Source: Anthoceros angustus
Lineage: Eukaryota > Plantae > Anthocerotophyta
Direction of reading: 5' to 3'
Assembly: GCA_010909165.1 (NCBI GenBank)
Contig: MU008166.1
Span: 1,550,001 to 1,614,000 of the forward strand
Length of the DNA: 64,000 bases
Shown: positions 1,529 through 64,000 of the stretch, piece by piece
How the letters are laid out: each line of letters starts with the position of its first letter
Numbering within the stretch: the first letter of the stretch is position 1
Translations under genes and position numbers: made by a program
The notes under the pieces: model-generated
What the model was told of the DNA's origin: nothing
Seen by the model: only the letters and a program-made list of their open reading frames with translations
Database searches by the model: none

Positions 1529-1590
1529 CGCGTCGCAGGAAGCTCCGGAGCGAGGGGTGGTAAAAGGCACTTGCACAGTGTGCCACGCTC

Positions 1591-25090: not shown

Positions 25091-25596
25091 GATTGTTTGA
25101 CATATTTCATCAAAAACACGTTTTTCATAGTCATCTTCTACAAAATCATCTCCATGCCATGACAGATTGCGGAGCAAACATTTCTCACTCTGACGGGTGC
25201 ATAAGCGTTTATCAGGTGTCCAGATGCGGGCCCTTTAACATGAGCGTGCACTACGGCGTTGCTGATCACTCGCTTAACTGATCGTCCCTCCCTACAGAGG
25301 TTGTATCGCCGTGTTCCATTTGAAAAAAGCATTTAGGTGAGCGACTCCTCACAGTCCATCCTGCCATCAGCCGAGCCAGTGTCCGCAGCATACAAGGCTT
25401 TTGTGCACCGAGATACACTTTGCCCTAGCTGCAGCATGCGCTCCATCGGGTCATGGCAGTGTGGACAGTCACTTGTAATTCACGCAAAGGACAACTTGGT
25501 GGTTGAGTGCAGGGATGTAGTCGATTTACTGTGGTGTCAACAGTTAGCAGACCGAGGTGCAGCAGCTGTGCAACAAACCCAGGCTGTGGGCACAGA

Positions 25597-28944: not shown

Positions 28945-29214
28945 GGTAGACAAGTCATGGGTTCACTGTCGTTCATAGGATCCATACTCTTATCAATCTC
29001 AATTCGCACGGAAGGTCGTCTCCTACCTCGCAGCTTGTTTTTCAGTGCACAGAAATCTAGCACTGATTCAGGAAAGTTTAACCTCAATTCCCAAAGCATA
29101 TCATCTCCTCCGTTGCAGCTTGTGTTTCAATTCTCAACGATGTAGGCAGTAGCAAAGACCCATCACGATTATGAGCGAGGCCCACATGAAGAACTGCTCA
29201 GGCTGTCGCACAGC

Positions 29215-32200
29215 ATGTCTGGCAGAGGGAAAAGCGTCGACAAAGGGTTGTCGCCCAGAGCTCTGGTGTCCACACTGTTTTCGGGATCACACACCTGGCT
29301 GGCTGTTGATATCCAGATGGGTCGTCGTGCTCCTGCATCGTACTGGAGCCTGCGGGATGATACTGACTCTGTCGGGACTGCAGCATACGGAAGGGCCGTG
29401 ACGGCTGAAACCGTCATGGAACTTTGTCAGGAGGGGCAGCTGAATGAGGCCGTTGAGGCTTTGGGCGTTCTGGTGCAGACACAATGTCCTATTTCCCAGT
29501 CTCTCCTTTACACTGTTTTGAGAAAATGTGTGGTCAAGAGGGATCTGGTTCTGGGTCGCCGTGTTCATGCTCTCAACTTGAAGCAGGGGTATGAGTCGGA
29601 CACGTTCTTGTGCAATCACATTCTTCGTATGTATGCTTCACATGCCAGGTTGAAAGAAGCGATGGATGTGTTCACCGTAGTTTCCACGCCAGATGCCTTC
29701 ATGTGGTCTTCCATAATCTCCAGTTATGTTAAACACGGACAGGCTAAGAAGGCCATACAACTGTATCATGAGATGCGCAGGTCAAGGGTGAAACCAGATG
29801 GTCATGTGTTTGTCGCATCCCTACAGGCTTGTGCAAGGGCAGCAGACTTGAAAACTGGACAGCAGGTGCATGCTGATGTGTTGGCCGGTGGGCTTGAGAC
29901 TGATTTGTTTGTTGGGAGCTGTTTAGTTGACATGTATGCTAAGTGTGGTAGCTTGGAAGGCGCACATAGAGTCTTTGACGGACTTGGTCAGAAGGATGTA
30001 GTGACATGGAATGCCATAATCTCAGGCTATTCCCAGCAGGGCATGGGTCAGAAAGCCCTTGACCTTTACCGTGCTATGCAACAAGAAGGATTTGCTGCAC
30101 CTGATTCTGTGACGTTTGCTTGCCTCCTGCAGGCATGTGCAAGTGTGGGTATTCCGGCTATGGAGACAGGAAAGCAGCTTCATCGACAGATCAAAGAAAA
30201 AGGCATCAAAGTTGACGCGGTTGTTGGTTGCAGCCTTGTGAACATGTATGCAAAGTGTGGCAGCCTACAGGATGCTCAGATCGTGTTTGATGGACTTGGT
30301 GAAAAGGATGTGGTTACATGGAATGCCATGTTAGCAGGATATTCCCAGCAGGGCATGGGTCGGGAAGCCTTTCGTGTTTACAATGCCATGCAAGAAGAAG
30401 GCATCACTGCACCTGATTCTGTGACATTTGGTTGCCTCCTTCAGGCATGTGCAAGCATTGGGCATTCAGCATTGGAAACGGGGAAGCAGCTGCATGAACA
30501 GATTGGAGAACAAGGACTTCAAGCTGATGTGAGCTTAAGCAACAATCTGATAAATATGTATGCAAAGTGTGGCAGCTTAGAGGATGCTCAGAGCGTATTT
30601 GATGCGCTAAGTCAAAAAGATGTTGTGACTTGGACTGCTCTGATAGGAGGATATACTCAGCAGGGCATGGGTCAGGAAGCCCTTCATCTTTACAGTATTA
30701 TGCAAGAGGAAGGCATTGCAGCATCTGACTCTGTTACACTTATGTGCCTCCTACAGGCGTGTGCAATTGTGGGTACTACAGCTTTGGAGACGGGGAAGCA
30801 GCTTCATGCTGAGATTAAAGAACGTGGACTTCAGGTCGATGCGGCTGTGGGTGACAGGCTGGTAAACATGTACGCAAAGTGTGGCAGCATGCAGGATGCC
30901 CAGAGTGTGTTTGATGAACTTGATAAGAAGGATCTCGTGACATGGAATTCCATGATAGCAGGTTATGCCCAGCAATGCATGGGTCAGGAAGCCCTTAGTG
31001 TTTACAGTGTCATGAAAGAAGGAGGCACCTCTGCACCCGATGCTGTGACATTTGTTCGTCTCCTCCAGGCATGTACAAGTATGGGTGCCCCGTCTTTGGA
31101 GATGGGGAAGCAGGTTCATGCCGAGATTGAAGAACAGGGGCTTCAGGCCGATGTGTTTATAGGTTGCAGCCTGATCAACATGTATGTGAAGTGTGGCAAC
31201 CTACTAGGTGCCCAGAGCGTGTTTGATGGACTTGTTCACAAAGATGTGGTGATATGGAATGTTATGCTGTTAGGCTATTCCCAGCAGGGCATGGGCCAGG
31301 AAGCTCTCCATCTCTACAGTGCTATGCAAGAAGAAGGCTCCACTGTGCCAGATTCAGTGACATTTGTGTGCCTCTTGCAGGCGTGTGCAAGTGTGGGTTC
31401 CCAGGCTCTGGAGATGGGTAAGCAGATTCATGATCAGATTAGAGAACAAGGGCTCCAAGTGGATGAGTTCGTGACCAACAGTTTGATAAACATGTATGCA
31501 AAATGTGGCAGCCTTGAGGATGCTCAGAGCTTGTTTGACGGACTCACAAAGAAAGATGTGGTGACATGGAATGCCATGATATCAGGATACTCCCAGCAGG
31601 GCAAGGGTCAGGAAGCTCTTGATCTCTACGATGCTATGCAAGAACAAGGCATCTCCTCACCTAATTCTGTAACATTTGTGTGCCTTCTTCAGGCCTGTGC
31701 AGGTGTGGCAGCTCTGCGTGCTGGAAGGCAGCTTCATGCAGTGATTGAACAACACGGGCTGCAAACGGATTTGACTGTAGCCAACAGTTTGATGAATATG
31801 TATGCAAAAGCCGGCAGCATGGTGGATGCACAGAAGGTGTTTAATGCATTGCCCGAACGAGATGATGTTGCCTGGAATGCACTGATTGCAGGATACACTC
31901 GTCAGGGAGAAACAGAAGTGGTCTTTAACTTGGTCAACAGAATGAAAGAGGATGGCATACAGCCAAATGGCGTCACCTTTCTTAGTGTGCTAACAGTGTG
32001 CAGTCATGGTGGTCTAGTGAGCAAGGGGCAAGAGTACTTTGAGATTATGTGCAGAGACTCTAACATAACTCCTACTGCGGAACACTATGCATGCATGGTG
32101 GATTTGCTGGGTCGTGCGGGCCAACTGGACGAGGCACTAGTTTTGGCAAGCACAATGCCTGTGGAGCCTATTGACGCAGTTTGGCACACTCTACTGGGTG

Positions 32201-32532
32201 CTTGCCGGAAGTGGAGAAACGTGGAGGTGGGACGCTATGCATTCAATGAAGCAATGAAGATAGACCAAAAGGATGCTGCAGCATATGTGTCAATGTCCAA
32301 CATATATACTGGTGCCCAGATGTGGGAAGAGGCACATGAGATGCAGGAGAGGAGAAAAAGCATCGGGGCGTGGAAGCAGCCAGGCCGGAGCTGGTGGACA
32401 GACATGGACGGATTGGTCCATAATTTTGTGGTTGGGGATAGAAAGCATTCTGAGAGTGACGAAATATATGCGGGTCTGAAGCAGCTGCTTCCCAAGATGA
32501 TGAAAGAAGGATATCTCCCACAATCGGAGTAG
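29215..32532 (+). CDS. PLS-class PPR organellar RNA-editing factor: 26 PPR motifs, E1-E2, WW-type PG box, truncated DYW (E+)
   Basis: Same architecture as the upstream paralog. It contains GACRKWRNV and KQPGRSWWTDMDGLVHNFVVGD...EGYLPQSE*. Confidence 0.94.
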   Translation: MSGRGKSVDKGLSPRALVSTLFSGSHTWLAVDIQMGRRAPASYWSLRDDTDSVGTAAYGRAVTAETVMELCQEGQLNEAVEALGVLVQTQCPISQSLLYTVLRKCVVKRDLVLGRRVHALNLKQGYESDTFLCNHILRMYASHARLKEAMDVFTVVSTPDAFMWSSIISSYVKHGQAKKAIQLYHEMRRSRVKPDGHVFVASLQACARAADLKTGQQVHADVLAGGLETDLFVGSCLVDMYAKCGSLEGAHRVFDGLGQKDVVTWNAIISGYSQQGMGQKALDLYRAMQQEGFAAPDSVTFACLLQACASVGIPAMETGKQLHRQIKEKGIKVDAVVGCSLVNMYAKCGSLQDAQIVFDGLGEKDVVTWNAMLAGYSQQGMGREAFRVYNAMQEEGITAPDSVTFGCLLQACASIGHSALETGKQLHEQIGEQGLQADVSLSNNLINMYAKCGSLEDAQSVFDALSQKDVVTWTALIGGYTQQGMGQEALHLYSIMQEEGIAASDSVTLMCLLQACAIVGTTALETGKQLHAEIKERGLQVDAAVGDRLVNMYAKCGSMQDAQSVFDELDKKDLVTWNSMIAGYAQQCMGQEALSVYSVMKEGGTSAPDAVTFVRLLQACTSMGAPSLEMGKQVHAEIEEQGLQADVFIGCSLINMYVKCGNLLGAQSVFDGLVHKDVVIWNVMLLGYSQQGMGQEALHLYSAMQEEGSTVPDSVTFVCLLQACASVGSQALEMGKQIHDQIREQGLQVDEFVTNSLINMYAKCGSLEDAQSLFDGLTKKDVVTWNAMISGYSQQGKGQEALDLYDAMQEQGISSPNSVTFVCLLQACAGVAALRAGRQLHAVIEQHGLQTDLTVANSLMNMYAKAGSMVDAQKVFNALPERDDVAWNALIAGYTRQGETEVVFNLVNRMKEDGIQPNGVTFLSVLTVCSHGGLVSKGQEYFEIMCRDSNITPTAEHYACMVDLLGRAGQLDEALVLASTMPVEPIDAVWHTLLGACRKWRNVEVGRYAFNEAMKIDQKDAAAYVSMSNIYTGAQMWEEAHEMQERRKSIGAWKQPGRSWWTDMDGLVHNFVVGDRKHSESDEIYAGLKQLLPKMMKEGYLPQSE

Positions 32533-32959
32533 ACGGCAGCACCTACTAGTTGACTAAGCGACACTGCACGCTTTGTGACAAAATCTCTCGAAAGCGGGAG
32601 CTGCCTTGAAATCGCTGGTTCCATACAGTACGGGGTCTAAGACCAAGGTGTAAGACACGGTTCTGGGGCGCCTGCTCATCCTGTCATGATGTGAAACGCG
32701 GGTGCAAGGGTCGGAGATGGGCAAGCAAGGAAGCGAACGTCATGCCTTGTGCAATTGAAATTTGGACATGCTATGGATCGCTAAGATGAAGGATTTAGCC
32801 CTTCCTGTGTTAAGGCCGATGTCCTTGAAATGCAGTTCGTCATGAATTGGAATTAGGAGAAAAGGAAATGTCTGGCCGGAGAAAGATTTTCCATAGAAGG
32901 TCGTCGGCAGCAGCGTAACAGGGCATATAGCATTTGCTGGTCCGTATGAAAGGGTTGTT

Positions 32960-47012: not shown

Positions 47013-47057
47013 CCATGTCTATTGCATCCCTCCATAGGCCGGATGCAATAGACATGG
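47013..47057. repeat. Perfect 17-bp inverted repeat (hairpin); second copy at ~49516-49560
   Basis: ccatgtctattgcatcc - 11-nt loop - ggatgcaatagacatgg. Confidence 0.85.
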
Positions 47058-47241
47058 ATTTATAAAAGAATAAATAGTAGGGTGTTAGATAATTAGGATA
47101 TACATATTAGATTAGGGCACGGTCAGGATAATGAGCAAACGCAAATGCGCATAGCATGGACGCGGATGTGTCCACATGACATGGCCAGTTGAGTGGCTAG
47201 AATGGATTGGAGATAACCGCGTCTTAACATTGGCTTTCAGT

Positions 47242-47253
47242 TGGTATTAGAGC
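47242..47253 (+). mobile_element. tRNA-iMet primer-binding-site-like motif of a plus-strand LTR retroelement remnant
   Basis: tttca-gt-TGGTATTAGAGC has one mismatch to the canonical TGGTATCAGAGC. It is duplicated at ~49750. Confidence 0.5.
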
Positions 47254-47359
47254 CACTCAAACCGCACGGGTTTGAATGGCAACAAGGCACTGCAGATCCC
47301 AAGTAGTTACAATTGTGTCTTGCATGAAAAATAGCCTAGCCCCACATGAGAAGTGGCAT

Positions 47360-47708
47360 TGTTGACCGACGGAGTGCTAAGAGGCCTGGCTGCATGCATG
47401 TTGTCCTGGTATTGGCTTTTAGTAGTCGATGAGTTGAGGAAGGTAGTATCTTGGCTGATCAGACTAGCCTACGAGTACGCTGCATACAAGATCGAAAAGG
47501 TATGTAGGACAATCATGGTGATCGAGGCCGTCAACTGGCATGGATTCATAATTCGCATCACCTCAGAACTGAAAGGGAAAACATTGGATTGATAATAAAC
47601 AATGTACAGAGGAAGAATGTGACCAGGCACATGAGAGCTTGTCCATGAAACGACGTGTCTGTTCAGGCTAGGACAGCGTAGCAAGCTAACGGATTGTAAT
47701 TCCTAACA
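47360..47708 (-). mobile_element. 3' LTR of the minus-strand Ty1/copia element
   Basis: On the minus strand a PPT (ttaagggggcg) is followed directly by TGTTAG at 47708. A TCAACA end lies at 47360, so the left boundary is tentative. Confidence 0.6.
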
Positions 47709-47736
47709 CGCCCCCTTAAGCTAGACTAGAGATGAA

Positions 47737-48550
47737 CTATGAACCATCAGGTAATGTCATCCCCAATCCGCTACAGCAAATTTCGTGCTCGGGCTTCGAC
47801 AAGGCTTTGGTAAGAACATCAGCCCACTGATCACTCGTAGGAGTGTAGGCAAGAGCCAATTCTCCATTTTCCACCTTCTCACGAAGAAAGTGAAACCGCA
47901 GCTCGATGTGCTTGGAACGATCATGGAATCTGGAGTTCTGAGAAAGAGCAGTCGAGGACTGGTTGTCGCACAGCAGGCGAACAGGACCAGCATGAGGAAA
48001 TCTATTTCATGAATTAAGCGAGAGAGCCAGACGGCTTCTTTGGATGCGGCAGCAACAACAATGTATTCATATTCGGTCGAGAGAGCAAGCTTGCTTGCGG
48101 ATTGCCAACAAAAGCGCCTAACTTAGTGAAAGTATAGCCTATATGACTTTCGAGAATCGAGATCACCAGCCCGATCGCATCAATCTAGCCACAAAGATTA
48201 GAAGTAGAATGTTTGTCATGATAATAGATGCCTCGTTGTCGAGTAGACTAAAGATATAATAGAATCTTTGATCGAGGACCAATGAGGAGGACCCGGGATT
48301 AGACATAAACCGTGAAGTGTGAGGCCGAGAAAGCAATATCGAGGTGAGAATTTTGCACAAGGTCGAATAGAGCTGTAAAGACGACAGTTGAGCTTTCATT
48401 TCAGCCCTAACAACATCATCTTGAGGTGATATGGCCTTAGTCAACTTCACACCAGCTTGTAAAGGAGTATCAATCGGCTTGGAATTCTCCATGTGGAACT
48501 TGGTGAGGACATCATCGACATACTTGGCTTGATGGATGGTAATAGTTTAA
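47737..48550 (-). mobile_element. Ty1/copia RT C-terminus and RNase H remnant (duplicate of 50790-51613)
   Basis: MENSKPIDTPL, FMSNPG, AASKEAVWL, SKHIE.RFHFLREKV and WADVLTKAL, all frameshifted. Confidence 0.85.
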
Positions 48551-49787
48551 GTCCAGCCAGCAAAGGTATCGAAAGCTGCGCGCCACGTTGAAGACGGAAC
48601 TTCCCACAAGCAGCGCCAGCACCACGTTCTGTGACGTTGTAGGCATTGCCCGGCATGGCCGCGGTCGCGCCACTTCCGGCTCACAGGTGCTTTGTGCGTG
48701 GGATGTCTGTCAGTAGCACAGAAGAGCCAAAGCCGAAAGTGGCCTCCTCGTTTCTCCACGCTGCGCACTGTCTGACACAAATCCGTAGCAAATGTTGTCA
48801 TCTGTCAGTCAGTTTGACGGATTCCGCCTTGCCTGGAGCTGCTAATCGAAGGACTGTACATCCTCTACATGTGTGTACCCTCCGCTATTACCCCATATTG
48901 CCTGGACATCCTTCGCCCACACCTGGTTGATCTTGGCAACCGTGGTCTCCGGTGACGTACACCACGGTTAGGCTTTCCGGTGGCTGCGGTTGGAATCTGG
49001 AACATGTTCTCGTTGCCCGAAAATGGCTCCGGGCATCGAATTAAAGTATTTTAATTCCGGAGGCCCTGGAAGAGTGGCTCCTAAAACTCGTCACGTTATT
49101 AAATGCGCTCGTCTGCGCAGGGTGGGACCGTTAAAGGTTGCTCCGATCTTTGGAGAAGGTGCATACATCTGCATTGATGTATCTACAGGGTCAACATCTA
49201 TTTACAGGACGGTCGGTATGTATGGCATGTTGACACAAATTTTACAACGGGATTTGTTGACACAAATTTTACAACGGGATTTGTTGACATGGCATGTTGA
49301 CACAAATTTTACAAGGGTTCCTAACTAATATGATGTGGCATGGATTTTACAAGGGTTCCTAACTAATATGATGTGGCATGGATTTTACAACGGGATTTGT
49401 TGACATGGCATGTTGACACAAATTTTACAAGGGTGATGGCCTAGCTACACGGCGTAGGACCATAGGCGGAACTCAAGGTACCGACCTACCCTTCCGACGA
49501 ATCTCCTCCAACGAGCCATGTCTATTGCATCCCTCCATAGGCCGGATGCAATAGACATGGATTATAAAAGAATAAATAGTAGGGTGTTAGATAATTAGGA
49601 TATACATATTAGATTAGGCACGGTCAGGATAATGAGCAAACGCAAATGCGCATAGCATGGACGCGGATGTGTCCACATGACATGGCCGTTGAGTGGCTAG
49701 AATGGATGTCTTATTGGAGATAACCCGCGTCTTAACATTGGCTTTCGGTTGGTATTAGAGCCACTCAAACCGCACGGGTTTGAATGG

Positions 49788-50471
49788 CAACAAGGCTAAA
49801 GGCACCCTCTTCAAAATAGCCTATATCCTGCGTTGAGTAAAGCCCCAAGCTACAAGTCTAGCCTTGTAGTGGGCAAGAGTACCATGCACGGTACTTTTCT
49901 TCCACACCCATTTGCGGTGATAAGATTCTTACTTGGAGGAAAATCTATGAGAATGGATGTCTTATTGGAGATGAGAGAAGCATACTCGATAGTGGCTATT
50001 TTCCATCGAGGCTATCATTCCTTTGGGGTTCGATCCCAAGGGAATGATCCGCTGTTGCTTACTATTCGCCTACTCCGGATTCCTAATTATCCCAACTACC
50101 CCGTGTCTAAAACTCTTCCGGTTCTCCTTGATTACGAAGGTGACGACGGGCTCACCTCGATCACGGACCACGGTCCGACCACGTACAAACATCAAGACCG
50201 AATCTCCTCCAACGGAGGGAAAGCGAGGTACCGCACCATGGGACCTTCGACCGCAATACAAGGGTGATGGCCTAGCTACACGTAGGACCATAGGCGGAAC
50301 TCAAGGTACCGACCTACCCTTCCGACACTGGGTTCGTACCACTCTTCGGATCGTTAGCGCCTAAGGTTCTGACCTCGAGTCCAACCGTATCGTCAACCGC
50401 TTACTTCCCTCTGCTCACCTTCCTTCATGTTCCATAAACCGCACTCAGACATGCGCGATATGGCTAAAAAC
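49788..50471 (-). mobile_element. Ty1/copia RT N-terminus/linker fragment (duplicate of 52083-52811)
   Basis: KWVWKKK...HYKARLVAWGFTQ. It ends at a second copy of the CACTA terminus at 50472. Confidence 0.75.
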
Positions 50472-50604
50472 CACTACAAGGAGGGGCTACCTTTTACAAA
50501 TGGGTCTAAGTTTAGTTAGAGGAAACTACAACACTCTTACTACTCAAAGCCACCTGTTGTAAGTTTTTGAACATTTACAACAAGGGTTCCTAACTAATAT
50601 GATG

Positions 50605-52811
50605 TGGCATGGATTCATAATTCGCATCACCTCAGGCGAAAGGGAAAACATTGGATTGATAATAAACAATGTACGGAGGAAGAATGTGACCAGCACATGA
50701 GAGCTTGTCCATGAAACGGCGTGCGTGACTAGGGCAGTTAGCAAGCTAGATTGTAATTCTAACACGCCCCCAGCTAGACTAGAGATGAACTATGAACCAT
50801 CAGGTAATGTCATCCCCAATCCGCTACAGCAAATTTCGTGCTCGGGCTTCGACAAGGCTTTGGTAAGAACATCAGCCCACTGATCACTCGTAGGAGTGTA
50901 GGCAAGAGCCAATTCTCCATTTTCCACCTTCTCACGAAGAAAGTGAAACCGCTCGATGTGCTTGGAGCGATCATGGAATGGAGTTCGAGAAAGAGCGGAG
51001 AGGTTGTGCATAAGAGCAAGGACCAGCATGAGGAAATCTATTTCATGAATTAAGCGAGAGAGCCAGACGGCTTCTTTGGATGCGGCAGCAACAACAATGT
51101 ATTCATATTCGGTCGAACTGAGAGCAACTGTGGGCTTGCTTGCGAGATTGCCAACAAACAGCTCCGCCAACTTAAGTGAAAGTATAGCCTATATACGACT
51201 TTCGAGAATCGAGATCACCAGCCCAGTCTGCATCAATCTAGCCACAAAGATTAGAAGTAGAATGTTTGTCATGATAATAGATGCCTCGTTGTCGAGTAGA
51301 CTAAAGATATAATAGAATCTGTTTGACTGAGGACCAATGAGGAGGACCAGGATTAGACATAAACTGTGAAGTGTGTGAGGCCGAGAAAGCAATATCGAGG
51401 TGAGAATTTTGCACAAGGTGCTGAATAGAGCCTGTAACTTGACAGCACGGTTGAGCTTTCATTTCAGCCCTAACAACATCATCTTGAGGTGATATGGCCT
51501 TAGTCAACTTCACACCAGCTTGTAAAGGAGTATCAATCGGCTTGGAATTCTCCATGTGGAACTTGGTGAGGACATCATCGACATACTTGGCTTGATGGAT
51601 GGTAATAGTTTAATTTTCAGCATCATGCTTGACTTGAACACCAAGAAGTACTCTAAAATGCAATTGTTAATCATATGAAATTCTGAGCTCAATTCTGACT
51701 TGGCATGCTTGAGAACCTCAAGATTGTTAGTAAAGATGGCTAGATCATCATCATAAAGAGCTATGATCACAAGACCTTAAGGTGAGCGTGAGACATAGAT
51801 CTTGGTGTCAGCCGAAGTCTTATGATAGCCAACCTGAAGCATGTATTTATCAAACCGGTCATACCACACTCAAGGCGATTGTTTAAGCCCATGGATTGTG
51901 CGTTGCAATCTAGAAACCTTCTTTTCTTGACCAGGAGTGGTATAACCTTCAGGCTGTGACATTTATAAAGGCTTCTTCCTTAAGGAAACCATTAAGGAAG
52001 GCTGTTTGGATGTCCATCTGGTAGACATACCATCGATGGATAGCTTCCAAAGCCAGCAACACATGCAAAGAAGTAAGCTTGACAACAAGGCTAAAGGCAC
52101 CCTCTTCAAAATAGCCTATATCCTGGCGTTGAGTAAAGCCCCAAGCTACAAGTCTAGCCTTGTAGTGGGCAAGAGTACCATGTGCACGGTACTTTTTCTT
52201 CCACACCCATTTGCAGCTGATAAGATTCTTACTTGGAGGAAAATCTATGAGAATGGATGTCTTATTGGAGATGAGAGAAGCATACTCCTGATAGTGGCTA
52301 TTTTCCACTGAGCAGCTATCATTCCTTTGGGGTTCGATCCCAAGGGAATGATCCGTTCTGTTTGCTTACTATTCGCCTACTCCGGATTCCTAATTATCCC
52401 AACTACCCCCGTGTCTAAAAACTCTTCCGCCGGTTCTCCTTGATTACGAAGGTGACGACGGGCTCACCTCTGATGCGGACCACGGGTCCGACCACTGCCG
52501 TTGCCAAACATCAGCACCGAATCTCCTCCAACGGAGAGGGGAAAGCGAGGTACCGCACCATGGGACCTTCGACCGGCAATACAAGGGTGATGGCCTAGCT
52601 ACACGAGCGTAGGACCATAGGCGGAACTCAAGGTACCGACCTACCCTTCCGACGAACTGGACCGGGGTTCGTACCACTCTTCGGATCGTTAGCGCCTAAG
52701 GTTACAGCCTCGAGTCCAACCGTATCACCGTCTGAACCGCTTACTTCCCTCTGCTCACCTTCCTTCATGTTCCATAAACCGCACTACTGTACATGCGCGA
52801 TATGGCTAAAC
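50605..52811 (-). mobile_element. Decayed Ty1/copia retrotransposon: linker, RT, RNase H, PPT and partial LTR
   Basis: KARLVAWGFTQ, QMDIQTAFLNG, GLKQSP, IIALYDDDL (YVDD motif), VALSSTEYEY, RSKHIE and ADVLTKAL, with many stops and frameshifts. Confidence 0.92.
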
Positions 52812-53248
52812 CACTACAAGGAGGGGCTACCTTTTACAAATGGGTCTAAGTTTAGTTAGAGGAAACTACAACACTCTTACAAAGCAAAGCCTGTAAGTTT
52901 TTGAACATTTACAACAAGGGTTCCTAACTAATATGATGTGGCATGGATTTTACAGGGGTTTGTTGACATGGCATGTTGACAAATTTTACAACGGGATTTG
53001 TTGACATGGCATGTTGACACAAATTTTACAACGGGGTTTTTGACATGGCTTGCTCGTTGTACATGACGTTGTTAATTGTGCATAAACTCTTTTGATTTAG
53101 AAAACTATGGGGGTTATTTGTTAATAAAACTACATTTTGTTGAATTTATAATGACGTGGCATAAAGGATGATGTAAACGGTACTTGTAAAAGACGTTGTA
53201 AACCATGTTTGTTGTAGATGTGGTTGTAAATTGTGCAAGACTTGATTT

Positions 53249-56200
53249 TTGGAATAATACCATTTATTGGAATATCTATGAATAGATTTATTATTTGCTG
53301 ATGTGGCAAGTTCGTTGCAAATGATGTTGTAAATATGTTTCTCTGGATTTATGTTAGTTATGGGATTATCTTTTTTTTGTATTTATCGACGTGTCACATG
53401 CATTGTAGCTATGGTTGTAAAACGCATGAAAACCATTTTATATAAATATCTATAAATAAATTTATTATTTGCTGACATGGCAAGCTCATTGCAAATATCA
53501 TTGTAAAATGGTTTCTCCAATTTATGTTATATTATTGGATTATTCATTTTATTGTATATTTCTGACGTGGCACATGCGTCGTAACTATGGTTGTAAAATG
53601 CACAAGCCAGCCAATATCCATGAATAAATATATTATTTGCTGATGTGGCATGTTTGTAAATCTAAAAATTTTGGAAGAGACCTTTTCCTTATTTATGTAA
53701 TTTATGAGGTTATATATTAGTAAGAGCATGCCTTTTCCTTATTTATGTAATTTATGAGGTTATATATTAGTAAGATTGCGATGTGGCATGCCTTTTCCTT
53801 ATTTATGTAATTTATGAGGTTATATATTAGTAAGATTGCGATGTGGCATGCTTGTAAAATGCCGTAAATATGTGGAAGAGACCTTTTCTGATTTATGTCA
53901 TTTATGAGGCTATATATTAGTGAAATTGTTGATGTCATGTTCATTGCAAATACATTGTAAAATGTTATACAAATTTATCGATTTATAAATAGTGCCGCAT
54001 TGTAAATGTCGGTGTAAGAATTTTCCTAGCCAAGTCAAAACGAGGCATGCATCTTGGCATCCAGTCCACCGAAGCGCCCACACGTTATCCAAATGTCCTC
54101 TTTGCACAAGTGTGAGTGCCACCGCCTTCCAGAAGGCACCAATGCTTGCACATGCCTTCAAAAGGCAAGCAAAAGTAACCTCATCGGCCAAGGGCCCTCT
54201 GTGCATTCGTCCATACAAAAATAGCGCCTCTTGACCAAGCCCTTTCTGTCCATACCCAAAGAATCGTGGCATTCCAAGTCACCACATCCTTTGGGCTCAA
54301 GCATTGAAAAACTTGATGCGCATCTTCTACTTCGCCACACTTTGCCTACATGTCCACTGCAAGTGCCCACAAGTGTGTTATCTAGTCCTCTCTCCACAAC
54401 TGGAGTACCGCCTCCTTCAGGCACTTGCGTTGCACAGCCTTGGAAGGCAAGCAAAGGTAACATGGTTGCCCACAATCGCCCTCCTTCTCCATTTGTCCAT
54501 GAACAAGCGCCTCTTGGCCAAGCCCATGATTTGCATACCCAACTATCGTGGCGCCCATGTCACGACATCCTTTCTCGCAACCTATCGAAAACCGTGTTTG
54601 CCTCTTCCACCACCATTATGCGTACATGTCCACCGATAGCTTGGCAATACAAGTTCGGTGGAATGTCACTGCAACATATCATGCGCACTTTTCGCTAGAT
54701 TCCAGTCCACGAAATGCACAAGCTTGAAGGGCTGCTACAAAGATGTGGGCATCCGCCACACCGAGCGACACATCGCATAGTAAAGTTATATCGCCTCATT
54801 AGGCTCCCCATGTGTAGCATGTGCGGAGATTATTGGAATAATACCATTTATTGGAATATCTATGAATAGATTTATTATTTGCTGATGTGGCAAGTTCGTT
54901 GCAAATGATGTTGTAAATATGTTTCTCTGGATTTATGTTAGTTATGGGATTATCTTTTTTTTTTTGACGTGTCACATGCATTGTAGCTATGGTTGTAAAA
55001 CGCATGAAAACCATTTTATATAAATATCTATAAATAAATTTATTATTTGCTGACATGGCAAGCTCATTGCAAATATCATTGTAAAATGGTTTCTCCAATT
55101 TATGTTATATTATTGGATTATTCATTTTATTGTATATTTTGACGTGGCACATGCGTCGTAACTATGGTTGTAAAATGCACAAGCCAGCCAATATCCATGA
55201 ATAAATATATTATTTGCTGATGTGGCATGTTTGTATAAATGCCGTTGTAAAATTTTGGAAGAGACCTTTTCCTTATTTATGTAATTTATGAGGTTATATA
55301 TTAGTAAGATTGATGTGGCATGCCTTTTCCTTATTTATGTAATTTATGAGGTTATATATTATGTGGCATGCCTTTTCCTTATTTATGTAATTTATGAGGT
55401 TATATATTAGTAAGATTCGATGTGGCATGCTTGTCGCAAATGCCGTTGTAAATATGTGGAAGAGACCTTTTCTGATTTATGTCATTTATGAGGCTATATA
55501 TTAGTGAAATTGCGATGTGGCATGTTCATTGCAAATACATTGTAAAATGTTATACAAATTTATCGATTTATAAATAGTGCCAGCATTGTAAAATGTCGGT
55601 GTAAGAATTTTCCTAGCCTCACAAAACGAGGCATGCATCTTGGCATCCAGTCCACCGAAGCGCCCACAAGTACGTTATCCAAATGTCCTCTTTGCACAAG
55701 GAGTGCTACACCTTATCATGGCACCAATGCTTGCACATGCCTTCAAAAGCCAAGCAAAAGTAACCTCATCACCACAAGGCCCTCCTGTTGCATTCGTCCA
55801 TACAAAAATAGCGCCTCTTGACCAAGCCCTTTACCCCATACCCGGAATCGTGGCATTCCAAGTCACCACATCCTTTGGGCTCAAGCATTGAAAAACTTGA
55901 TGCGCATCTTCTACTTCGCCACACTTTGCCTACATGTCCACCGCAAGTGCCCACAAGTGTGTTATCTAGTCCTCTCTCCACAATCAGGAGTGCACCGCCT
56001 TCAGAAGGCACTTGCGTTGCACAGCCTCTAAGGCAAGCAAAGGTAACATGGTTGCCCACAATCGCCCTCCTTCTCCATTTGTCCATACAAAAATAGCGCC
56101 TCTTGGCCAAGCCCATGATTTGCATACCCAACTATCGTGGCCGTCCATGTCACGACATCCTTTCTCGCTAACCTATCGAAAACCGTGTTTGCCTCTTCCA

Positions 56201-56420
56201 CCACCACGCTATGCGTACATGTCCACCGATTGGCAATAAACAAGTTCGGTGGAATGTCACTGCAACATATCATCGCACTTTTCGCTAGATTCGTGTCCAC
56301 AAATGCACAAGCTTGAAGGGTGCTACAAAGATGTGGGCATCCGCTTCACACGAGCGACACATCGCATAGTAAAGTTGTATCGCCTCATTAGGCTCCCCAT
56401 GTAGCATGTGCGGAGATTAT
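53249..56420. repeat. ~1.58-kb tandem duplication (53249-54832 and 54833-56420)
   Basis: Both copies start ttggaataataccatttattgg and differ mostly by 1-3 nt indels. Confidence 0.9.
54040..54832 (-). pseudogene. Captured PLS-PPR fragment, copy 1
   Basis: GYGQKGLGQEALFLYGRM...DEVTFACLLKACASIG and related motifs, frameshifted. Confidence 0.8.
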
Positions 56421-56640
56421 TGAAAACCACATGAAGGGATTTGGTTTGCCCACCCTCCGTAGCCTACCTCCGGATACATACATCCGCAAGATATGGTTCC
56501 CCAAGTATGTGATTGACTCGTACCCAAGTTTGATGAGATCATGAACGCGTCATCCCACAACCATGTCCTTCTTATCTCGCACAAAGTTTTAGCACGACAT
56601 ATAAGATGGATGAGGAATAGAATAGTCTATCTCGCGATTT
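55625..56640 (-). pseudogene. Captured PLS-PPR 5' fragment, copy 2
   Basis: KKDMVVG*RVHDLIKLGYE...LGNHILRMY...GKPNPFMWFSIISAH...AIQLYYAM...VFDRLARKDVVTWTATIVGYANHGLGQEALFLYGQM. Confidence 0.85.
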
Positions 56641-57027
56641 TCTGAGCTCCAACGGCCTCGAGCTTTCCCTACTCACATAACGTCGATGGTTACAGTGTCA
56701 CGACTCCCATATCCAATCCGCACACCTCCTGTGCTCGCTTTGGGAGCTCGACTTGGAAGGAGAAGCACAATGACCCACTGCATATTCAAAGAAACAAGCT
56801 TCTCATCCAACAAGTGGCTTGAACATGTTGTTTAACCCGAGGACCTCACGGACTCCTTGCACGAATGTCGGTGAGCGAGCTCCTCTTACCTCGCCTAGTT
56901 TCCCACGCACAAGAGGGGAGTCCTAGGAAGTGGTGATGGGAGGACGGTTACTTGGTGTGGTCACGAGAAGCGGTGGCCGCTCAAGTCCGCTACACGAGTC
57001 CGTAGTCCTATCTATTCAAATAGGTAG

Positions 57028-57285
57028 GACTCAAGTCCTTGGTCTTTGGGGGAAGAAAGCAGACTCAAGTCCTTGGTCTTGGGTTTGAATGATGTTCCTT
57101 GGTCCTTGGGAAAAGTAGCAAGTAGATAGAAGCCTATTTCGAGTCCTTGGTCTTGGTTTGAATGATGTTCCTTGGTCCTTGGGAAAATGGTATGTAGATA
57201 GAAACCTAGTCCTTGGTCTTGGGTTTCGGAAGGATGTTCCTTGGTCCTTGGGAAAAGTAGCATGTAGATAGAAACCTATTTCGAG
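57028..57285. repeat. Tandem array built on ccttggt sub-repeats (second copy ~61397-61660)
   Basis: gtccttggtcttg...tgttccttggtccttgggaaaa...gtagataga repeats about 3 times. Confidence 0.8.
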
Positions 57286-57839
57286 GAAGGCAACTTCCTT
57301 GAACCATGGGAATTCCGTTTTCTAGATATTGCATGTAGGGCTATATATGCATGTTAGGTAGATGCAGGGGTAAAATTGGCCGACTCATCAAGGGCCCGGT
57401 CAGACATGTATACAATCTCGCTACTCCATGGCCGGAGTAGTGAGTTCAACCTAGGCGTATACCGGTTGAAAATTTTATAGCAACTGCGAATCTAGGTAGG
57501 AATCCTAGTGTACTTCCTTTGGATTGCGCCTTCGCAATTCCAATGGAGATACACTAGGACAAGCTGATTAGCGAGCTACATATAAAGATTTGTAATACAA
57601 TGATATGCGAGTTCTTGCATATTAGCAGACAAAGTCGGGCCTAATGAAATGGCCAATCCAGGCGCCCGGCTGGCGCCTGCCGAGCTAATTTCTAATAGAC
57701 GCAATAGGTATAGAGTTTCGATAGGCCTTCACTTGCGATAATCTACATAGTATGCCGAATGCTGAAAAACCAATCTGAGGGATTTCACGAAGCATGGTTA
57801 GTCGTAACATCCGAAATGTAGAGGCATGTTGAAATGTTG

Positions 57840-58221
57840 AAATGTCACCGCAGATCTGGAAGAGGTTGAAGGACACATGTGAAATGTCATTAGTGTAATG
57901 GCGCATTGAGGTGATTCCACCGAAAAACACATAGGAGTATTTAGATCCTTAGTGCTAAGGTTGAAGGATCCTCGTGACCTTCCGAGTGAAGAGGAGCTCA
58001 CACTTTGACTCCTCATCTCACTTCCAATCTTGATCTCACTTCCGAGCTCAAACACGATCCCAAACGCAAGCGGAAGGTTAGTGAAGCAAGCGGAGTATGT
58101 GCCTACACAAGAAAACCCTGCAGATATATTAACGAAAGCTCTTTCAAAAGAGCCGCACGAGAAGCATGTTCGAGGTCCGGGGTTAGGAGAGTCCGGAACT
58201 TTCCTATCTAACCCCAACTAG
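57840..58221 (+). mobile_element. Ty1/copia RNase H C-terminal remnant nested in the CACTA element (second copy ~62215-62597)
   Basis: EYVPTQENPADILTKALSKEPHEKHVRG.GL. Confidence 0.75.
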
Positions 58222-60253
58222 CCTACATGCCCTGCTACCTAATCCCATTTCAGTCGCTGGGTCTGGAGGACTCTTCCTTTGGATTCTCGAGTCGGAGGGA
58301 CTGGAGGCCTTCGTAGCATCGAGTCCTCACCGCACATGTAATCTTGGGAGGAACAAGATCCTCCTCAATCCTCAAGATGATCCTGCAGTCAAGACACAAA
58401 GCAATTAGATAGCTTTAGAGCGAGTGGGAGTAGGAGCAGATGAAGCAAAACCCGTGTCACTTCATGGCGACTTACAACATGACCAGGAACAAGCTTCGCT
58501 CGATCCGTTTCATGACCCAGACCGATGCTTGCATCGATACAGATAGGAGAGCCTTGCACGGTGCCTAGGCTCACAATCTTCACATCCTTATCGGGGTTAC
58601 CTCGAGGGAAATTCGAGGCCGTGAGGGCCTCACCTCCCTCCGTCAGACATAGCCTCAGCCCACAGGTCAGAGGCCCCGAGCTCCCTCTTGCGCAGTGGCG
58701 AGGGGCACGCGTGGGAGAAATTGTGGAAGCTAAGCGCGCAATGGAGGACCTCCCATGTCCTCCGCGATTATGGCCTCGCCTAGTCCTCGCCGGCCACAGC
58801 AGCGTTGTGCGCTCCGTTTCTTGGTCGGCTCGAGCTTCCCGCAGCGGGTCGGCGGGTCCCTTGCAGCAGAGGAGGCGTTGTCCTAGCCGCCTTGCTTGCC
58901 GCAGCGCCTAGGGAGTCTCTTGGTGGCGGGGTTCGCATCCTTAGAGGAGGACGACATCTCGACGTTACGCTCCACAACCCCTTCTCCAATTGCAGGCGTG
59001 AAGATGAAGAAGAGGAATATAACGCACTGGTGAGGACTGGTTTCTCACCGCACGCTCGAATATATACCGGCGAGGAGGGCGTACGCAATGCAGCTTTCAC
59101 CCGACTCCATCCTACAAGGACGGAGATGATCCGGTTGTTGGAGCATCACTTTCCAAAATGATCAACAAGTGGGAGTGAAGAGGTATACCCAAACACACCT
59201 CTGTCCGATCCACCTCCTCCCGCTTCTCTCCGACGGTCACCTCCTCCCGCAAGACAAAGCATTCAATTGGGCTTTACGCGGACCGTGTTTTACAACACGG
59301 TCCGCTGTAAAGCCCAATTGTACGTAAAATGTTTGAGACGGCCGATCGGGCCTCTCTCATGTTTTACAACATACGCATAACCTAATCTAATTTACAACAC
59401 GATCCATTGCAAACCTCACTGTACATTGTAAAAGCGTTTAAGAGAGGCCAAGATAGGCCTCCCACAATTTTACAACATAGTCTAATTTACAACACTTTGC
59501 AAAGCGCACTTGTATGTTGTAAAATGTATGACAAGGCCGGATCAGCCTCGCACGCTTTACACCAAATTCACAACGTAGTCTCATATACAAGGTCCATTGC
59601 AAAGCGATCTTGCACGTTGTATACGCCTCGATCGGGCTTCGTGCCATTGACAAATTCACATTGTAAGCGTAGTGCCATTGACAAATTCACGGAGCCACCG
59701 GCGTCGAGAGACACAAGCCACGGTTCCCCAAGTCGTACCACTTGCTTTCGTGCTCTCACATAAATCATAGCAAGAGTTAGGAACGGCACGAGGCGGAGCG
59801 GCCGCAACCAAGACTCCACAACACCCTCGGGCAAGAGAGATGCACCACCTTCAAGCAAGAGACATGCACCACCTTGTGCAAGAGACATGCAGTCCTCTTC
59901 ATGTGTCATTTAGTCAAACAACTTCCACCAAAAATTGGACACAATCGAGCGTGATTTCTTGATGCGAGAAGCCATATGAACTAGCATCCATGAATACACT
60001 AAGGAGTACCGGAGCCATTAAACTTGGGTATTCTACCGATCTCGCTTCCATCGGCCCTCTTCTCCTCGCTCTTTTGGTTCGCTATCCGGGACGCCCTGTT
60101 GATGTTCTAGCTTTCCTGCGGTATTGCATCCATGTGAAATGTGAAAGAGATGTAGTGTGGCAATTATGCAGATTTGGATGTTGAAGCCATGAGAAAATGC
60201 GAGTGGACAACAAAGTTGCAATCGACATCGCACGCTTTGCAAGACGAGAATGC

Positions 60254-61010
60254 TCAAGCATTGAAAAACTTGATGCATCTTCTACTTCGCCACACTTTGC
60301 CTACATGTCCACCGCAAGTGCCCACAAGTGTGTTATCTAGTCCTCTCTCCACAATCAGGAGTGCACCGCCTTAAGGCACTTGCGTTTGCACAGCCTTGGA
60401 AGGCAAGCAAAGGTAACATGGTTGCCCACAATCGCCCTCCTTCTCCATTTGTCCATACACAAGCGCCTCTTGGCCAAGCCCATGATTTGCATACCCAACT
60501 ATCGGGCCGTCCATGTCACGACATCCTTTCGCCTAACCTATCGAAACCGTGTTTGCCTCTTCCGATTCACCACGGTTTGCGTACATGTCCACCGATTGGC
60601 AATAAACAAGTTCGGTGGAATGTCACATGCAACATATCATGCCGCACTTTTCGCTAGATTCGTGTCCACAAATGCACAAGCTTGAAGGGTGCTACAAAGA
60701 TGTGGGCATCCGCCTTCACACCAGGCGACACATCGCATAGTAAAGTTGTATCGCCTCATTAGGCTCCCCATGTGTAGCATGTGCGGAGATTATTGAAAAC
60801 CACATGAAGGGATTTGGTTTGCCCACCCTCCGTAGCCTACCTCCGGATACATACATGCAAGATATGGTTCCCCAAGTATGTGATTGACTCGTACCCAAGT
60901 TTGATGAGATCATGAACGCGTCATCCCACAACCATGTCCTTCTTATCGCACAAAGTTTTAGCGACATATAAGATGGGTGAGGAATAGAATAGTCTATCTC
61001 GCGATTTTCT
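60254..61010 (-). pseudogene. Captured PLS-PPR 5' fragment, copy 3
   Basis: VGKPNPFMWFSIISAHATHGEPNEAIQLYYAM. It shares in-frame stops with copy 2. Confidence 0.8.
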
Positions 61011-64000
61011 GAGCTCCAACGGCCTCGAGCTTTCCCTACTCACATAACGTCGATGGTTACAGTGTCACGACTCCCATATCCAATCCGGCACACCTCCTGT
61101 GCTCGGGCTTTCTTGGGAGCTCGACTTGGAAGGAGAAGCACAATGACCCACTGCATATTCAAAGAAACAAGCTTCTCATCCAACAAGTGGCTTGAACATG
61201 TTGTTTAACCCGAGGACCTCACGGACTCCTTGCAGAATGTCGGTGAGCGAGCTCCTCTTACCTCGCCTAGTTTCCCACGCACAAGAGGGGAGTCCTAGGA
61301 AGTGGTGATGGGAGGAGTTACTTGGTGTGGTCACCGAGAAGCGGTGGCCGCTCAAGTCCGCTACGAGTCCGGTAGTCCTATCTATTCAAATAGGTAGGAC
61401 TCAAGTCCTTGGTCTTTGGGGTTTGGGAAAGCAGACTCAAGTCCTTGGTCTTGAGGTTTGAATGATGTTCCTTGGTCCTTGGGAAAAGTAGCAAGTAGAT
61501 AGAAGCCTATTTCGAGTCCTTGGTCTTGAGGTTGGAAGGATGTTCCTTGGTCCTTGGGAAAATGGTATGTAGATAGAAACCTAGTCCTTGGTCTTGGGGT
61601 TTGGAAGGATGTTCCTTGGTCCTTGGGAAAAGTAGCATGTAGATAGAAACCTATTTCGAGGAAGGCAACTTCCTTGAACCATGGGAATTCGCTTTTCTAG
61701 ATATTGCATGTAGGGCTATATATGCATGTTAGGTAGACTGCAGGGGTAAAATTGGCCGACTCATCAAGGGCCTGGTCGGGACATGTATACAATCTCGCTA
61801 CTCCATGGCTGGAGTAGTGAGTTCAACCTAGGCCGTGGAGTATACGGTTGAAAATTTTATAGCAACCTGCGAATCTAGGTAGGAATCCTAGTGTACTTCC
61901 TTTGGATTGCTTGCAATTCAATGGAGATACACTAGGACAATCACTGATTAGCGACATATAAAGATTTGTAATACAATGATATGCGAGTTCTTGCATATTA
62001 GCGGCACAAAGTCGAGCCTAATGAAATGGCCAATCCAGCGCCGATGGCGGCCTCGCCTGAGCTAATAATTTCTAATAGGCATAGGTATAGAGTTTCGATA
62101 GGCCTTCACTTGCGATAATCTACATAGTATGCGATTGCTGAAAAACCAATCTACGGAGGGATTTCACGAAGCATGGTTGATATCCGAAATGTAGAGGCAT
62201 GTTGAAATGTTGAAATGTCACCGCAGATCCGGAAGAGGTTGAAGGACTGTATGCGGGGCGAAATGTCATTAGTGTAATGGCGATTGAGGTGATTCCACCG
62301 AAAAACACATAGGAGTATTTAGATCCTTAGTGCTAAGGTTGAAGGATCCTCTGGTGACCTTCGAGTGAAGAGGAGCTCACACTTTGACTCCTCACCTCAC
62401 TTCCAATCTTGATCTCACTTCCGAGCTCAAACACGATCCCAAACGCAAGCGGAAGGTTAGTAAGCAAGCTGGAGTATGTGCCTACACAAGAAAACCCTGC
62501 AGATATATTAACGAAAGCTCTTTCAAAAGAGCACGAGAAGCATGTTCGAGGTCCGGGGTTAGGAGAGTCCGGAACTTTCCTATCTAACCCCAACTAGCCT
62601 ACATGCCCTGCTACCTAATCCCATCGGATTGGGCGGTCTGAGGACTCTTCCTTTGGATTCTCCGAGTCGGAGGGACTGGAGGCCTTCGTAGCATCGAGTC
62701 CTCACCGCACATGTAATCTTGGAGGAACAGATCCTCCTCAATCCTCAAGAGATCCTGCGGTCAAGACACAAAGCAATTAGATAGCTTTAGAGCGAGTGGG
62801 AGTAGGAGCGAGATGAAGCAAAACCCAGTCACTTGCATGGCGACTTACAACATGACCGAGGGCAGTGTAACTTCACTCGATCCGTTTCATGACCGGACCG
62901 GTATGCTTGCATCGATACGAGATAGGAGAGCTGGTACATTGCTAGGCTCACAATCTTCACATCCTTATCGGGGTTACCTCGAGGGAAATTCGAGGCCGTG
63001 AGGGCCTCACCTCCCTCCGTCAGACATAGCCTCAGCCCACAGGTCAGAGGCCCCGAGCTCCCTCTTCTGCGGGTGGCGTAGGGGCACGCGTGGGAGAAAT
63101 TGTGGAAGCTAAGCGCGCAATGGAGGACCTCCCATGTCCTCCGATTATGGCCTCGCGCCTAGTCCTCGGCCAGCGTTGAGGCGCTCCGTTTCTTGGTCGG
63201 CTCGAGCTTCCGCGGTGTGTCTGGTCCCTTGCGCGGCAGAGGAGGGTTGTCCCGCCTTGCTTGCCGCTAGGGAGTCTCTTGGTGGCGGGGTTCGCATCCT
63301 TAGAGGCGACATCTCGACGAGTTCGCTCCACAACCCTTCTCCAATTGCACAGGCGTGAAGATGAAGAAGAGGAATATAACGCACTGGTGAGGATGGTTTC
63401 TCACCGCACGCTCGAATATATACCGGCGAGGAGGGCGTACGCAATGCATCTGCAGCTTTCACCCGACTCCATCCTACAAGGACCGGAGATGATCCGTTGT
63501 TGGAGCATCACTTTCCAAAATGATCAACAAGTGGGAGTGAAGAGGTATACCCAAACACACCTCTGTCCGATCGGTCACCTCCTCCCGCTTCTCTCCGACG
63601 GTCACCTCCTCCCGGCAAGACAAAGCATTCAATTGGGCTTTGCAGCGGACCGTGTTTTACAACACGATCCATTGCAAAGCGCACTTGTATGTTGTAAAAT
63701 GTTTGAGACGGCCGATCGGGCCTCTCTCATGTTTTACAACATACGCAACCTAATCTAATTTACAACACGATCCATTGCAAACCTCACTGTACATTGTAAA
63801 AGCGTTTAAGAGAGGCCAAGATAGGCCTCCACAATTTTACAACATAGTCTAATTTACAACACGATCCATTGCAAAGCGCACTTGTATGTTGTAAAATGTA
63901 TGACAAGGCCGGATCAGCCTCTGCGTTTACACCAAATTCACAACGTAGTCTCATATACAAGGTCCATTGCAAAGCGATCTTGCACGTTGTATACGCCTCG

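What the first reader, a model, noticed from the sequence alone, without database searches (positions are those of the whole stretch)
52812..64000. Pack-CACTA-like element carrying a captured PPR RNA-editing-factor gene of the local family
Seen: a CACTACAAG terminus sits at the point where a copia is interrupted, followed by CACTA-style subterminal repeat arrays. Between those arrays lies the 5' part of a PLS-PPR gene. Its first motifs (KKDMVVG*RVH...GYE...NHILRMY...KPNPFMWFSIIS...AIQLY) match the distinctive N-terminus of the intact PPRs at 25597 and 29215 (KKDLVLGRRVH...GNESDTFLCNHILRMY...KPDAFMWSSIIS...AIQLY). Stops shared by the copies (G*RVH, VDM*AK) show the cargo is really dead, not just mis-sequenced. 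Known: CACTA elements capture host fragments, and PPR families are hugely expanded in hornworts, ferns and lycophytes. Inference: DNA-transposon capture may be an under-described route for spreading or shuffling PPR arrays. It could also be a source of siRNAs that target a whole clade of editing factors.
Basis: partly seen in the sequence, partly recalled or inferred. Interest (0 to 1): 0.78.

Follow-up and report, generated by a model that had tools for sequence, protein, structure and literature searches.

The report
CACTA transposon with dead PPR fragment
The end of a repeated cut-and-paste jumping gene lies directly against a broken 0.9-kb piece of an organelle-RNA-binding (PPR) gene that it likely picked up as cargo, a kind of capture already described in grapevine; the extra copies in this window are likely assembly echoes, and the element's far end is not in view.

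Summary
The left end is real. CACTACAAG at 52812 begins a 1.2-kb arm rich in TTTACAA/TTGTAAA motifs. Short-read contigs on it are about 16 times deeper than single-copy DNA, and one spliced-run contig joins the same terminus to a different flank. The arm interrupts a low-copy copia. Its inner side abuts a 5' PPR fragment of about three PLS units, with no E/DYW domain, two shared stops and a 21-nt deletion.

Three claims do not hold up. The window's 'copies' differ no more than echoes of single-copy DNA. No partner TIR or TSD is present, and depth stays multi-copy past the second array. The neighbouring PPRs are not the donors: 47-48% identity against 73% to each other, and no perfect 21-mer match.

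Whether other copies carry the PPR could not be measured. I put Pack-CACTA cargo at 0.6. A CACTA carrying a PPR fragment, with the same antisense idea, is published for grapevine (PMC2528002). The scan noted a PPR piece in another transposon of this genome, but nothing resembling this arm.

The parts
47370..52811 (-). Low-copy copia remnant interrupted by the element; 48542-50605 is a patchwork of echoes of nearby sequence
   Evidence: RVT_2 51949-52365; contig depth 19.4 and 14.4 against single-copy 21.2; echo segments joined at short shared words
52809..52811 (+). Candidate 3-bp target site (aac); no partner found
   Evidence: sequence; no TAGTG followed by aac to the right
52812..52820 (+). 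CACTA 5' terminus (CACTACAAG)
52812..54040 (+). A+T-rich 5' arm with TTT(A/G)CAA motifs near the end and TTG(C/T)AAA motifs further in
   Evidence: GC 0.31; 15 motifs against 0.87 expected; 18 with the wider motif; single contigs at depth 344 and 359
54055..54838 (-). PPR fragment, rendering A (shorter)
54828..56425 (+). Second rendering of 53244-54838, likely an assembly echo
   Evidence: 49 indel events, 18 substitutions; 7 of 1176 clean substitutions
55640..56616 (-). PPR fragment, best rendering B: 5' part of a PLS-type gene, about three 104-residue units, TGA and TAG stops, 21-nt deletion, cut off at the arm
   Evidence: aligned 55723-56616 to residues 117-439 of the 29146 PPR; PPR-like residues continue by eye to about 55640; innermost arm motif at 55586
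56696..57809 (.). Multi-copy LTR-like segment (TG...CA ends with an 8-of-9 inverted match, 73-bp tandem repeats at 57068-57285); identity inferred
   Evidence: sequence; repeats; contig at depth 180 on its echo 61062-61222; no Pfam match
58100..58145 (+). Short copia RNase H-like motif (ENPADILTKAL; recalled motif, no library hit)
   Evidence: translation; Pfam blank
59260..59674 (+). Second array of the same motifs, ending near a degenerate GTAGTG (59669-59674) that is followed by cca, not aac; not terminal by depth
   Evidence: 7 motifs against 0.2 expected; 11 with the wider motif; contig depth 252 at 59556-59622, total 76 at 59631
59675..60250 (.). Multi-copy continuation beyond the second array; possibly a second captured piece
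   Evidence: contig at depth 114 on 59755-59875; an X2 contig matches two short pieces at 60023-60043 and 60191-60221
60252..64000 (+). Second rendering of 55879-59630 (holds PPR rendering C), likely an assembly echo
   Evidence: 117 indel events, 48 substitutions; 20 of 2694 clean substitutions
25507..28944 (+). Intact PLS-E+ PPR reading frame (p1), relative but not donor
   Evidence: Pfam PPR, E and E+; 47% to the fragment
29146..32532 (+). Intact PLS-E+ PPR reading frame (p2), relative but not donor
   Evidence: Pfam PPR, E and E+; 48% to the fragment

Best explanation
This is the 5' end of a multi-copy CACTA transposon that interrupts a low-copy copia, and the dead PPR fragment against the inner side of its arm is likely captured cargo of a transposase-less, Pack-type element whose right end lies beyond the reliable sequence. 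Shown: the terminus, the motif arrays, the multi-copy depth, a second flank, the PPR fragment and its truncation. Inferred: a transposase from an autonomous CACTA elsewhere binds the arrays and moves the element. Also inferred: the cargo was gained when two same-orientation neighbours lost their facing ends, as in the Arabidopsis model (PMC6379663), which would leave the second array as an older 3' arm now internal. The fragment would travel as a pseudogene, not as a working editing factor, and the repeated copies in the window are likely long-read assembly echoes.
For: Terminus and arrays. Arm contigs at depth 344 and 359, and 269 about 850 nt inside, against 21 for a 4.7-kb single-copy contig and 14-19 for the copia flank (the tool warns that depth is no exact copy number). 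X2 record 10 leaves the window's sequence within 2 nt of the terminus. The PPR meets the inner side of the arm, not its tip: aligned end 55723, innermost motif 55586. That junction is written twice with different errors. Most measurable interior pieces are multi-copy: 180, 235, 252, 114. No transposase among 66 short frames of the interior. A 157-nt contig at depth 344 with one difference from the window suggests young, near-identical copies.
Against: No partner TIR or TSD in the window. Depth on the PPR fragment itself is swamped by paralogs, so PPR-bearing copies are not counted. Interior depths differ (about 5 to 17 times single copy), and part of the interior looks like LTR-retroelement sequence that could be multi-copy on its own. 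The rest of the copia does not resume to the right. The locus lies 20-30 kb from a PPR cluster, so a resident pseudogene is plausible. No close donor was found. The assembly has chimeric jumps next door.
Confidence: 0.6

Rival explanations
1. The PPR piece is a resident pseudogene of the local cluster that never moved. A CACTA landed beside it, lost its right part by aberrant excision or deletion together with the 3' part of the PPR gene, and a second CACTA arm lies nearby. This is the not-yet-mobilised intermediate of the Pack-CACTA model.
For: No TIR/TSD pair. The copia does not resume on the right. Four other PPR genes or pieces lie at 24576-34500. An AU test does not reject grouping the fragment with p1 and p2 (p 0.117). 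Terminal deletions of Pack-CACTA1a were seen in about 1% of loci (PMC6379663 passages).
Against: The sequence on both sides of the PPR is multi-copy, and the junction right of the second array has total depth 76, more than three times single copy. The fragment is far from p1 and p2 (branch 0.6 against 0.17-0.19), and its CpG ratio differs (0.74 against 0.42-0.44).
Confidence: 0.3
2. The arm-PPR-array order is an assembly chimera that glues a CACTA arm to unrelated repeats.
For: 46090-52949 holds proven echoes: 46090-46803 lies in one unbranched single-copy contig yet is written again at 48542-49230. Jumps occur at short shared words. Window indels are errors against short-read contigs (for example at 55234 and 59120).
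Against: The arm-PPR junction and the PPR-to-array order each appear in two renderings with different errors. The known jumps land on sequence present elsewhere in the window, which these junctions do not. Among the 8 of 17 loose ends shown for 58250-60240, none lies between 59432 and 59874.
Confidence: 0.1

Closest known systems
Grapevine Cactavine-5 with a transduplicated PPR fragment (Benjak et al. 2008, PMC2528002; passages read)
   Same: CACTA element holding part of a PPR gene; the authors also propose an antisense transcript with possible regulatory effect on PPR genes.
   Different: There two copies, the 3' coding part plus UTR, downstream of a transposase ORF. Here a 5' PLS piece, no transposase seen, a non-flowering plant (likely a hornwort), and the second end unseen.
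Arabidopsis Pack-CACTA1 (Catoni et al. 2019, PMC6379663; passages) and Pack-TYPE survey (Gisby and Catoni 2022, PMC8903248; passages)
   Same: CACTACAA terminus, no transposase, host-gene fragments inside, patchwork interior; capture through closely spaced copies with terminal deletions fits the internal second array.
   Different: Those have both TIRs, a 3-bp TSD, identified donors and observed mobility; none of these is shown here. The survey's main text has no hit for PPR, moss or Marchantia.
PLS-class E+/DYW PPR editing factors of hornworts (PMC7027989, PMC13386178; passages)
   Same: The fragment comes from this gene class by similarity to p1, p2 and unnamed assembly proteins.
   Different: It lacks E, E+ and DYW and has stops. 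The 2026 survey attributes the expansion mainly to dispersed duplication linked to retroposition, not to DNA-transposon capture.

Membership tests
CACTA (En/Spm) superfamily | Terminus starting CACTA that marks a boundary between repeat and unique flank | tested here: met
   CACTACAAG at 52812; depth step and a second flank within 2 nt; Arabidopsis TIR CACTACAA quoted in PMC8903248
CACTA (En/Spm) superfamily | Subterminal short motifs repeated in both orientations (feature recalled from En/Spm) | tested here: met
   15 against 0.87 expected, and 7 against 0.2; both orientations
CACTA (En/Spm) superfamily | Matching terminal inverted repeat at the other end | tested here: inconclusive
   None in 52812-64000; best candidate at 59669-59674 shares only 6 bases; multi-copy sequence runs on to the echo at 60252, so the end may lie outside
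CACTA (En/Spm) superfamily | 3-bp target-site duplication | tested here: inconclusive
   Left aac; the only candidate right end is followed by cca; no genome is held to look further
Pack-CACTA | No transposase of its own | tested here: met
   0 of 66 interior frames hit a transposase family; frames are noisy and the unseen right part is untested
Pack-CACTA | Host-gene fragment enclosed by the two termini | tested here: inconclusive
   Fragment abuts the inner side of the 5' arm; closing end not seen
Pack-CACTA | Several copies sharing ends and cargo | tested here: inconclusive
   Arm multi-copy; cargo depth masked by paralogs; in-window copies are likely echoes
Pack-CACTA | Donor gene at another locus | tested here: inconclusive
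   p1 and p2 only 47-48%; a 51-residue query found nothing; no long contig on the fragment among the 17 pieces shown of 2745
PLS-class PPR editing factor | P-L-S repeat array | tested here: met
   52% over 302 aligned residues to p2 117-439; 312-nt period in the local genes
PLS-class PPR editing factor | C-terminal E/E+/DYW domain and intact frame | tested here: not met
   Fragment stops at p2 residue 439 of 1128; E motif of p2 is at 1024-1083; TGA and TAG stops

The most novel reading that the evidence does not exclude
In a hornwort-like genome a young CACTA family of ten or more copies carries the 5' repeats of a PLS-PPR gene around the genome, supplying raw repeats for new editing factors by recombination or gene conversion, or small RNAs that dampen one clade of them: a DNA-transposon route beside the retroposition route proposed for these plants.
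Probability: 0.08. Interest if true: 0.6.

Novelty: new member of a known kind. Interest (0 to 1): 0.24.

Why it matters
As shown, it is one more likely Pack-type CACTA with a pseudogene fragment. Its modest value is that it lies outside flowering plants, where my searches found no such report, and in a lineage with over a thousand PPR genes, where PPR pieces are the commonest thing a transposon could pick up. It would matter more if many copies carried the fragment and either fed new PPR genes or produced small RNAs against them. It is also a warning for this assembly: repeats are written two or three times with indel noise and look like gene copies.

Tried and rejected
No whole genome is held for this window, so the contig could not be extended or searched for copies. 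The 20-nt terminus had 0 exact matches in the metagenome collection. Earlier-finding look-ups by sequence for the arm and for the PPR piece found 0 look-alikes; a word look-up found 0. The inverted-repeat scan of 52700-60300 showed no terminal pair among the 25 longest of 504.

The GTAGTG at 59669-59674 was considered as the right end and rejected as the partner: 6 shared bases, cca instead of aac, depth still multi-copy beyond it. The two minus-strand CACTACAA matches (49864, 52160) lie inside copia RT coding sequence. 59900-60100 looked gag-like by eye but has no Pfam hit and is not used.

58250-59053 has no contig laid in either run; the tool says a hole proves nothing, so it is not used. 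No RNA holder was listed by the run search; X2 came as a same-sample addition. Summed depth over the PPR fragment was not used because paralogs dominate it.

The donor search with a 51-residue stretch found 2 candidates, none significant. The Atlas gave only weak unnamed hits (0.80-0.81) for 58392-58907. Rfam gave 0 matches in 46000-64000. The 32-row tree did not finish its careful search (quick tree shown); an 18-row subset (the fragment's clade plus one outgroup, 14 rows dropped) was run in full.

Literature searches without a hornwort, fern or lycophyte case: pentatricopeptide+CACTA+hornwort (2 unrelated papers), Pack-CACTA+pentatricopeptide (0), PPR+gene fragments+captured+CACTA+siRNA (1, listing only), transduplicat+CACTA+PPR (2). 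Supplements of PMC8903248: no PPR word in 12 of 14 files, 2 not searched; lists by gene id would not show it.
Full report
What was checked. No genome is held for the window, so the tests rest on the window, on contigs of two public runs (X1, DNA-like, holding 0.34 of the sampled words; X2, from the same sample), on protein searches and on papers. X1 may be the sample the window came from, which suits a check of the assembly but is not independent support. X2 behaves like RNA: one contig skips two introns with CT..AC ends on the plus strand.

The terminus is real. CACTACAAG stands at 52812-52820 after aac. The motif alone is not above chance: 50 matches at up to one mismatch against 50.9 expected. 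Three other things mark it. First, 52812-54040 holds 15 TTTACAA/TTGTAAA motifs against a shuffle mean of 0.87 (maximum 5 in 200). Second, single contigs on the arm have depth 344 and 359, and 269 about 850 nt inside, while a 4.7-kb unbranched contig on the genes to the left has 21.2 and the copia flank 19.4 and 14.4. The tool warns that depth is no exact copy number; I use single-contig values as a rough index, about 16 copies. Third, X2 record 10 (486 nt) matches 52810-53113 and its other 163 nt lie on nothing in 44500-64000; the X2 bin depth at 52312-52962 (6.26) is what that record alone gives. So the same end sits at another flank elsewhere. The left flank is copia: RVT_2 at 51949-52365 on the minus strand (E 3.8e-22), and the bases next to the terminus read like the end of an integrase (ISR..V.F.E, a recalled motif).

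The PPR fragment is real and dead. A frameshift-aware alignment places 55723-56616 (minus strand) on residues 117-439 of the intact 1128-residue PPR at 29146, with 156 of 302 residues identical. That is about three 104-residue units; the E motif of the intact gene is at 1024-1083, far beyond the cut. The TGA is in both renderings that reach it, the TAG in all three, and a 21-nt deletion in both that reach it; paralog contigs carry the missing piece (loose ends at 56456 in both runs). The ten frameshifts in the best rendering cannot be trusted, because window indels are errors against short-read contigs elsewhere (55234, 59120). The fragment meets the inner side of the arm: the aligned part ends 130 nt from the innermost motif at 55586, and PPR-like residues run on by eye to about 45 nt from it. 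A plain insertion into a PPR gene would put the CACTA tip, not the inner side, against the gene.

The copies are likely echoes. From 46 kb on, the window repeats itself: 53244-54838 again at 54828-56425, 55879-59630 again at 60252-64000, and several pieces of 46090-52949. The pairs differ mostly by 1-3-nt indels (49 events against 18 substitutions; 117 against 48). Substitutions at least 6 nt from a gap are 7 of 1176 and 20 of 2694 columns, the same as for the twice-written copia flank (6 of 581, 5 of 716), which has single-copy depth. 46090-46803 lies inside one unbranched single-copy contig yet is written again at 48542-49230. For the element's own repeats a very recent tandem duplication is not excluded, but the copies carry no independent history either way.

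The right end is missing. No CTTGTAGTG and no TAGTG followed by aac occurs right of 52812. A second array of the same motifs lies at 59260-59670 (7 against 0.2 expected). It ends near GTAGTG at 59669-59674, which shares six bases with the terminus and is followed by cca. Depth does not fall to single copy there: 252 on 59556-59622, 76 in total at 59631, 114 on 59755-59875. One bin, 60059-60125, is at 25, next to a loose end at 60124 that shows the window's letters differ there. Of 17 loose ends 8 are shown, none between 59432 and 59874. So a subset of roughly 4-5 copies continues the same way, and reliable sequence stops at the echo at 60252. Between the PPR and this array lie an LTR-like segment (56696-57809, depth 180 on one contig of its echo) and a copia RNase H-like motif; none of 66 short frames hits a relevant Pfam family, transposases included. 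Depth on the PPR fragment is swamped by paralogs (summed depths in the thousands in both runs), so the key number, how many copies carry the PPR, was not obtained.

The donor is not next door. The fragment is 48% and 47% identical to p2 and p1, which are 73% identical to each other, and 46-47% to three unnamed assembly proteins (the translation was guided by p2, which favours p2). In an 18-row tree the fragment sits in a clade with p1, p2 and two unnamed proteins (82/88), nearer the unnamed two (94/93, not starred), on a branch of 0.6; an AU test does not reject grouping it with p1 and p2 (p 0.117). So it belongs to the same subfamily but is no recent copy of these genes. For silencing, none of the 965 21-mers of the best rendering matches p1 or p2 perfectly, 0 and 2 match at up to one mismatch, and 14 and 25 at up to two; the same part of p2 against p1 gives 17 perfect and 130 at up to one, of 950. 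Window errors lower these counts somewhat, and unseen paralogs may be closer. Named homologs reach at most 47% and unnamed ones 57%; with earlier notes on this genome this points to a hornwort, an inference.

How it likely works. Shown: terminus, arrays, multi-copy arm, second flank, interrupted copia, truncated PPR. That would explain an older 3' array lying inside a longer multi-copy unit. I give this 0.6, a never-mobilised resident pseudogene fused to the arm by deletion 0.3, and an assembly chimera 0.1.

Comparison with what is known. It works like a Pack-CACTA; membership is not established, since TIR pair, TSD, shared cargo and donor are all inconclusive. In grapevine two Cactavine-5 copies carry part of a PPR gene, and the authors propose an antisense transcript with possible regulatory function (PMC2528002, passages). 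Small RNAs from captured fragments acting on donor genes are reviewed for maize (PMC13317346, passages). PPR expansion in hornworts and lycophytes is attributed mainly to dispersed duplication linked to retroposition (PMC13386178, passages); PPR genes are about 7.9% of genes in one hornwort (PMC7027989, passages), which makes them likely chance cargo. Mobile behaviour of PPR genes was noted in 2007 (PMC1892557, passages). PMC8075897 and PMC2869330 were read in passages and add nothing decisive. Four searches found no report of CACTA capture of PPR sequence outside flowering plants; most subscription papers are not in the library, and two supplementary files of PMC8903248 were not searched.

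Verdict. A real CACTA end with a likely captured PPR pseudogene fragment, in a stretch of assembly that stutters. New member of a known kind; interest 0.24. The bold reading, a CACTA family that feeds or silences PPR editing factors, is not excluded but has no direct support (0.08).

Noticed in passing
window 46090-52949: Patchwork of echoes: 46090-46803, 47002-47288, 47536-48550 and 49785-50615 are each written twice, joined at short shared words; a second copy of the CACTA terminus at 50472 is one of these echoes. Short-read depth is single-copy.
   Followed up: yes
window 59675-60250: A 2234-nt contig of the RNA-like run matches two short pieces here that are 774 nt apart in the contig and 147 nt apart in the window; this may be a deleted piece of another transcribed gene, a second cargo.
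   Followed up: partly
window 56696-57809: LTR-like segment with TG...CA ends, three 73-bp tandem repeats and no matching target duplication; multi-copy by depth. The right end differs between the two renderings.
   Followed up: partly
window 24576-34500: Cluster of PLS-PPR sequences: two intact E+ genes without a DYW domain, both with a PG box reading PG.SWW, a broken third gene at about 32700-34500 and a fragment at 24576-25122.
   Followed up: partly
window 41400-46020: Two convergent pectinesterase-like genes (named by eye from recalled motifs, no library call); the minus-strand one is spliced in run X2, and that 3863-nt contig also holds a 47-nt piece in the opposite orientation.
   Followed up: no
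window 55636-56620: The PPR fragment has a CpG observed/expected ratio of 0.74 against 0.42-0.44 in the intact local PPRs, unexpected for long-methylated transposon cargo.
   Followed up: no
window 887-1618 (-), 12273-13211 (-), 22486-23640 (+): Myb-domain, LSM-domain and F-box/KIB1-4 beta-propeller frames.
   Followed up: no
window 58250-59053: G+C-rich stretch (0.57) inside the element with no contig laid in either run and no family match; unexplained.
   Followed up: partly
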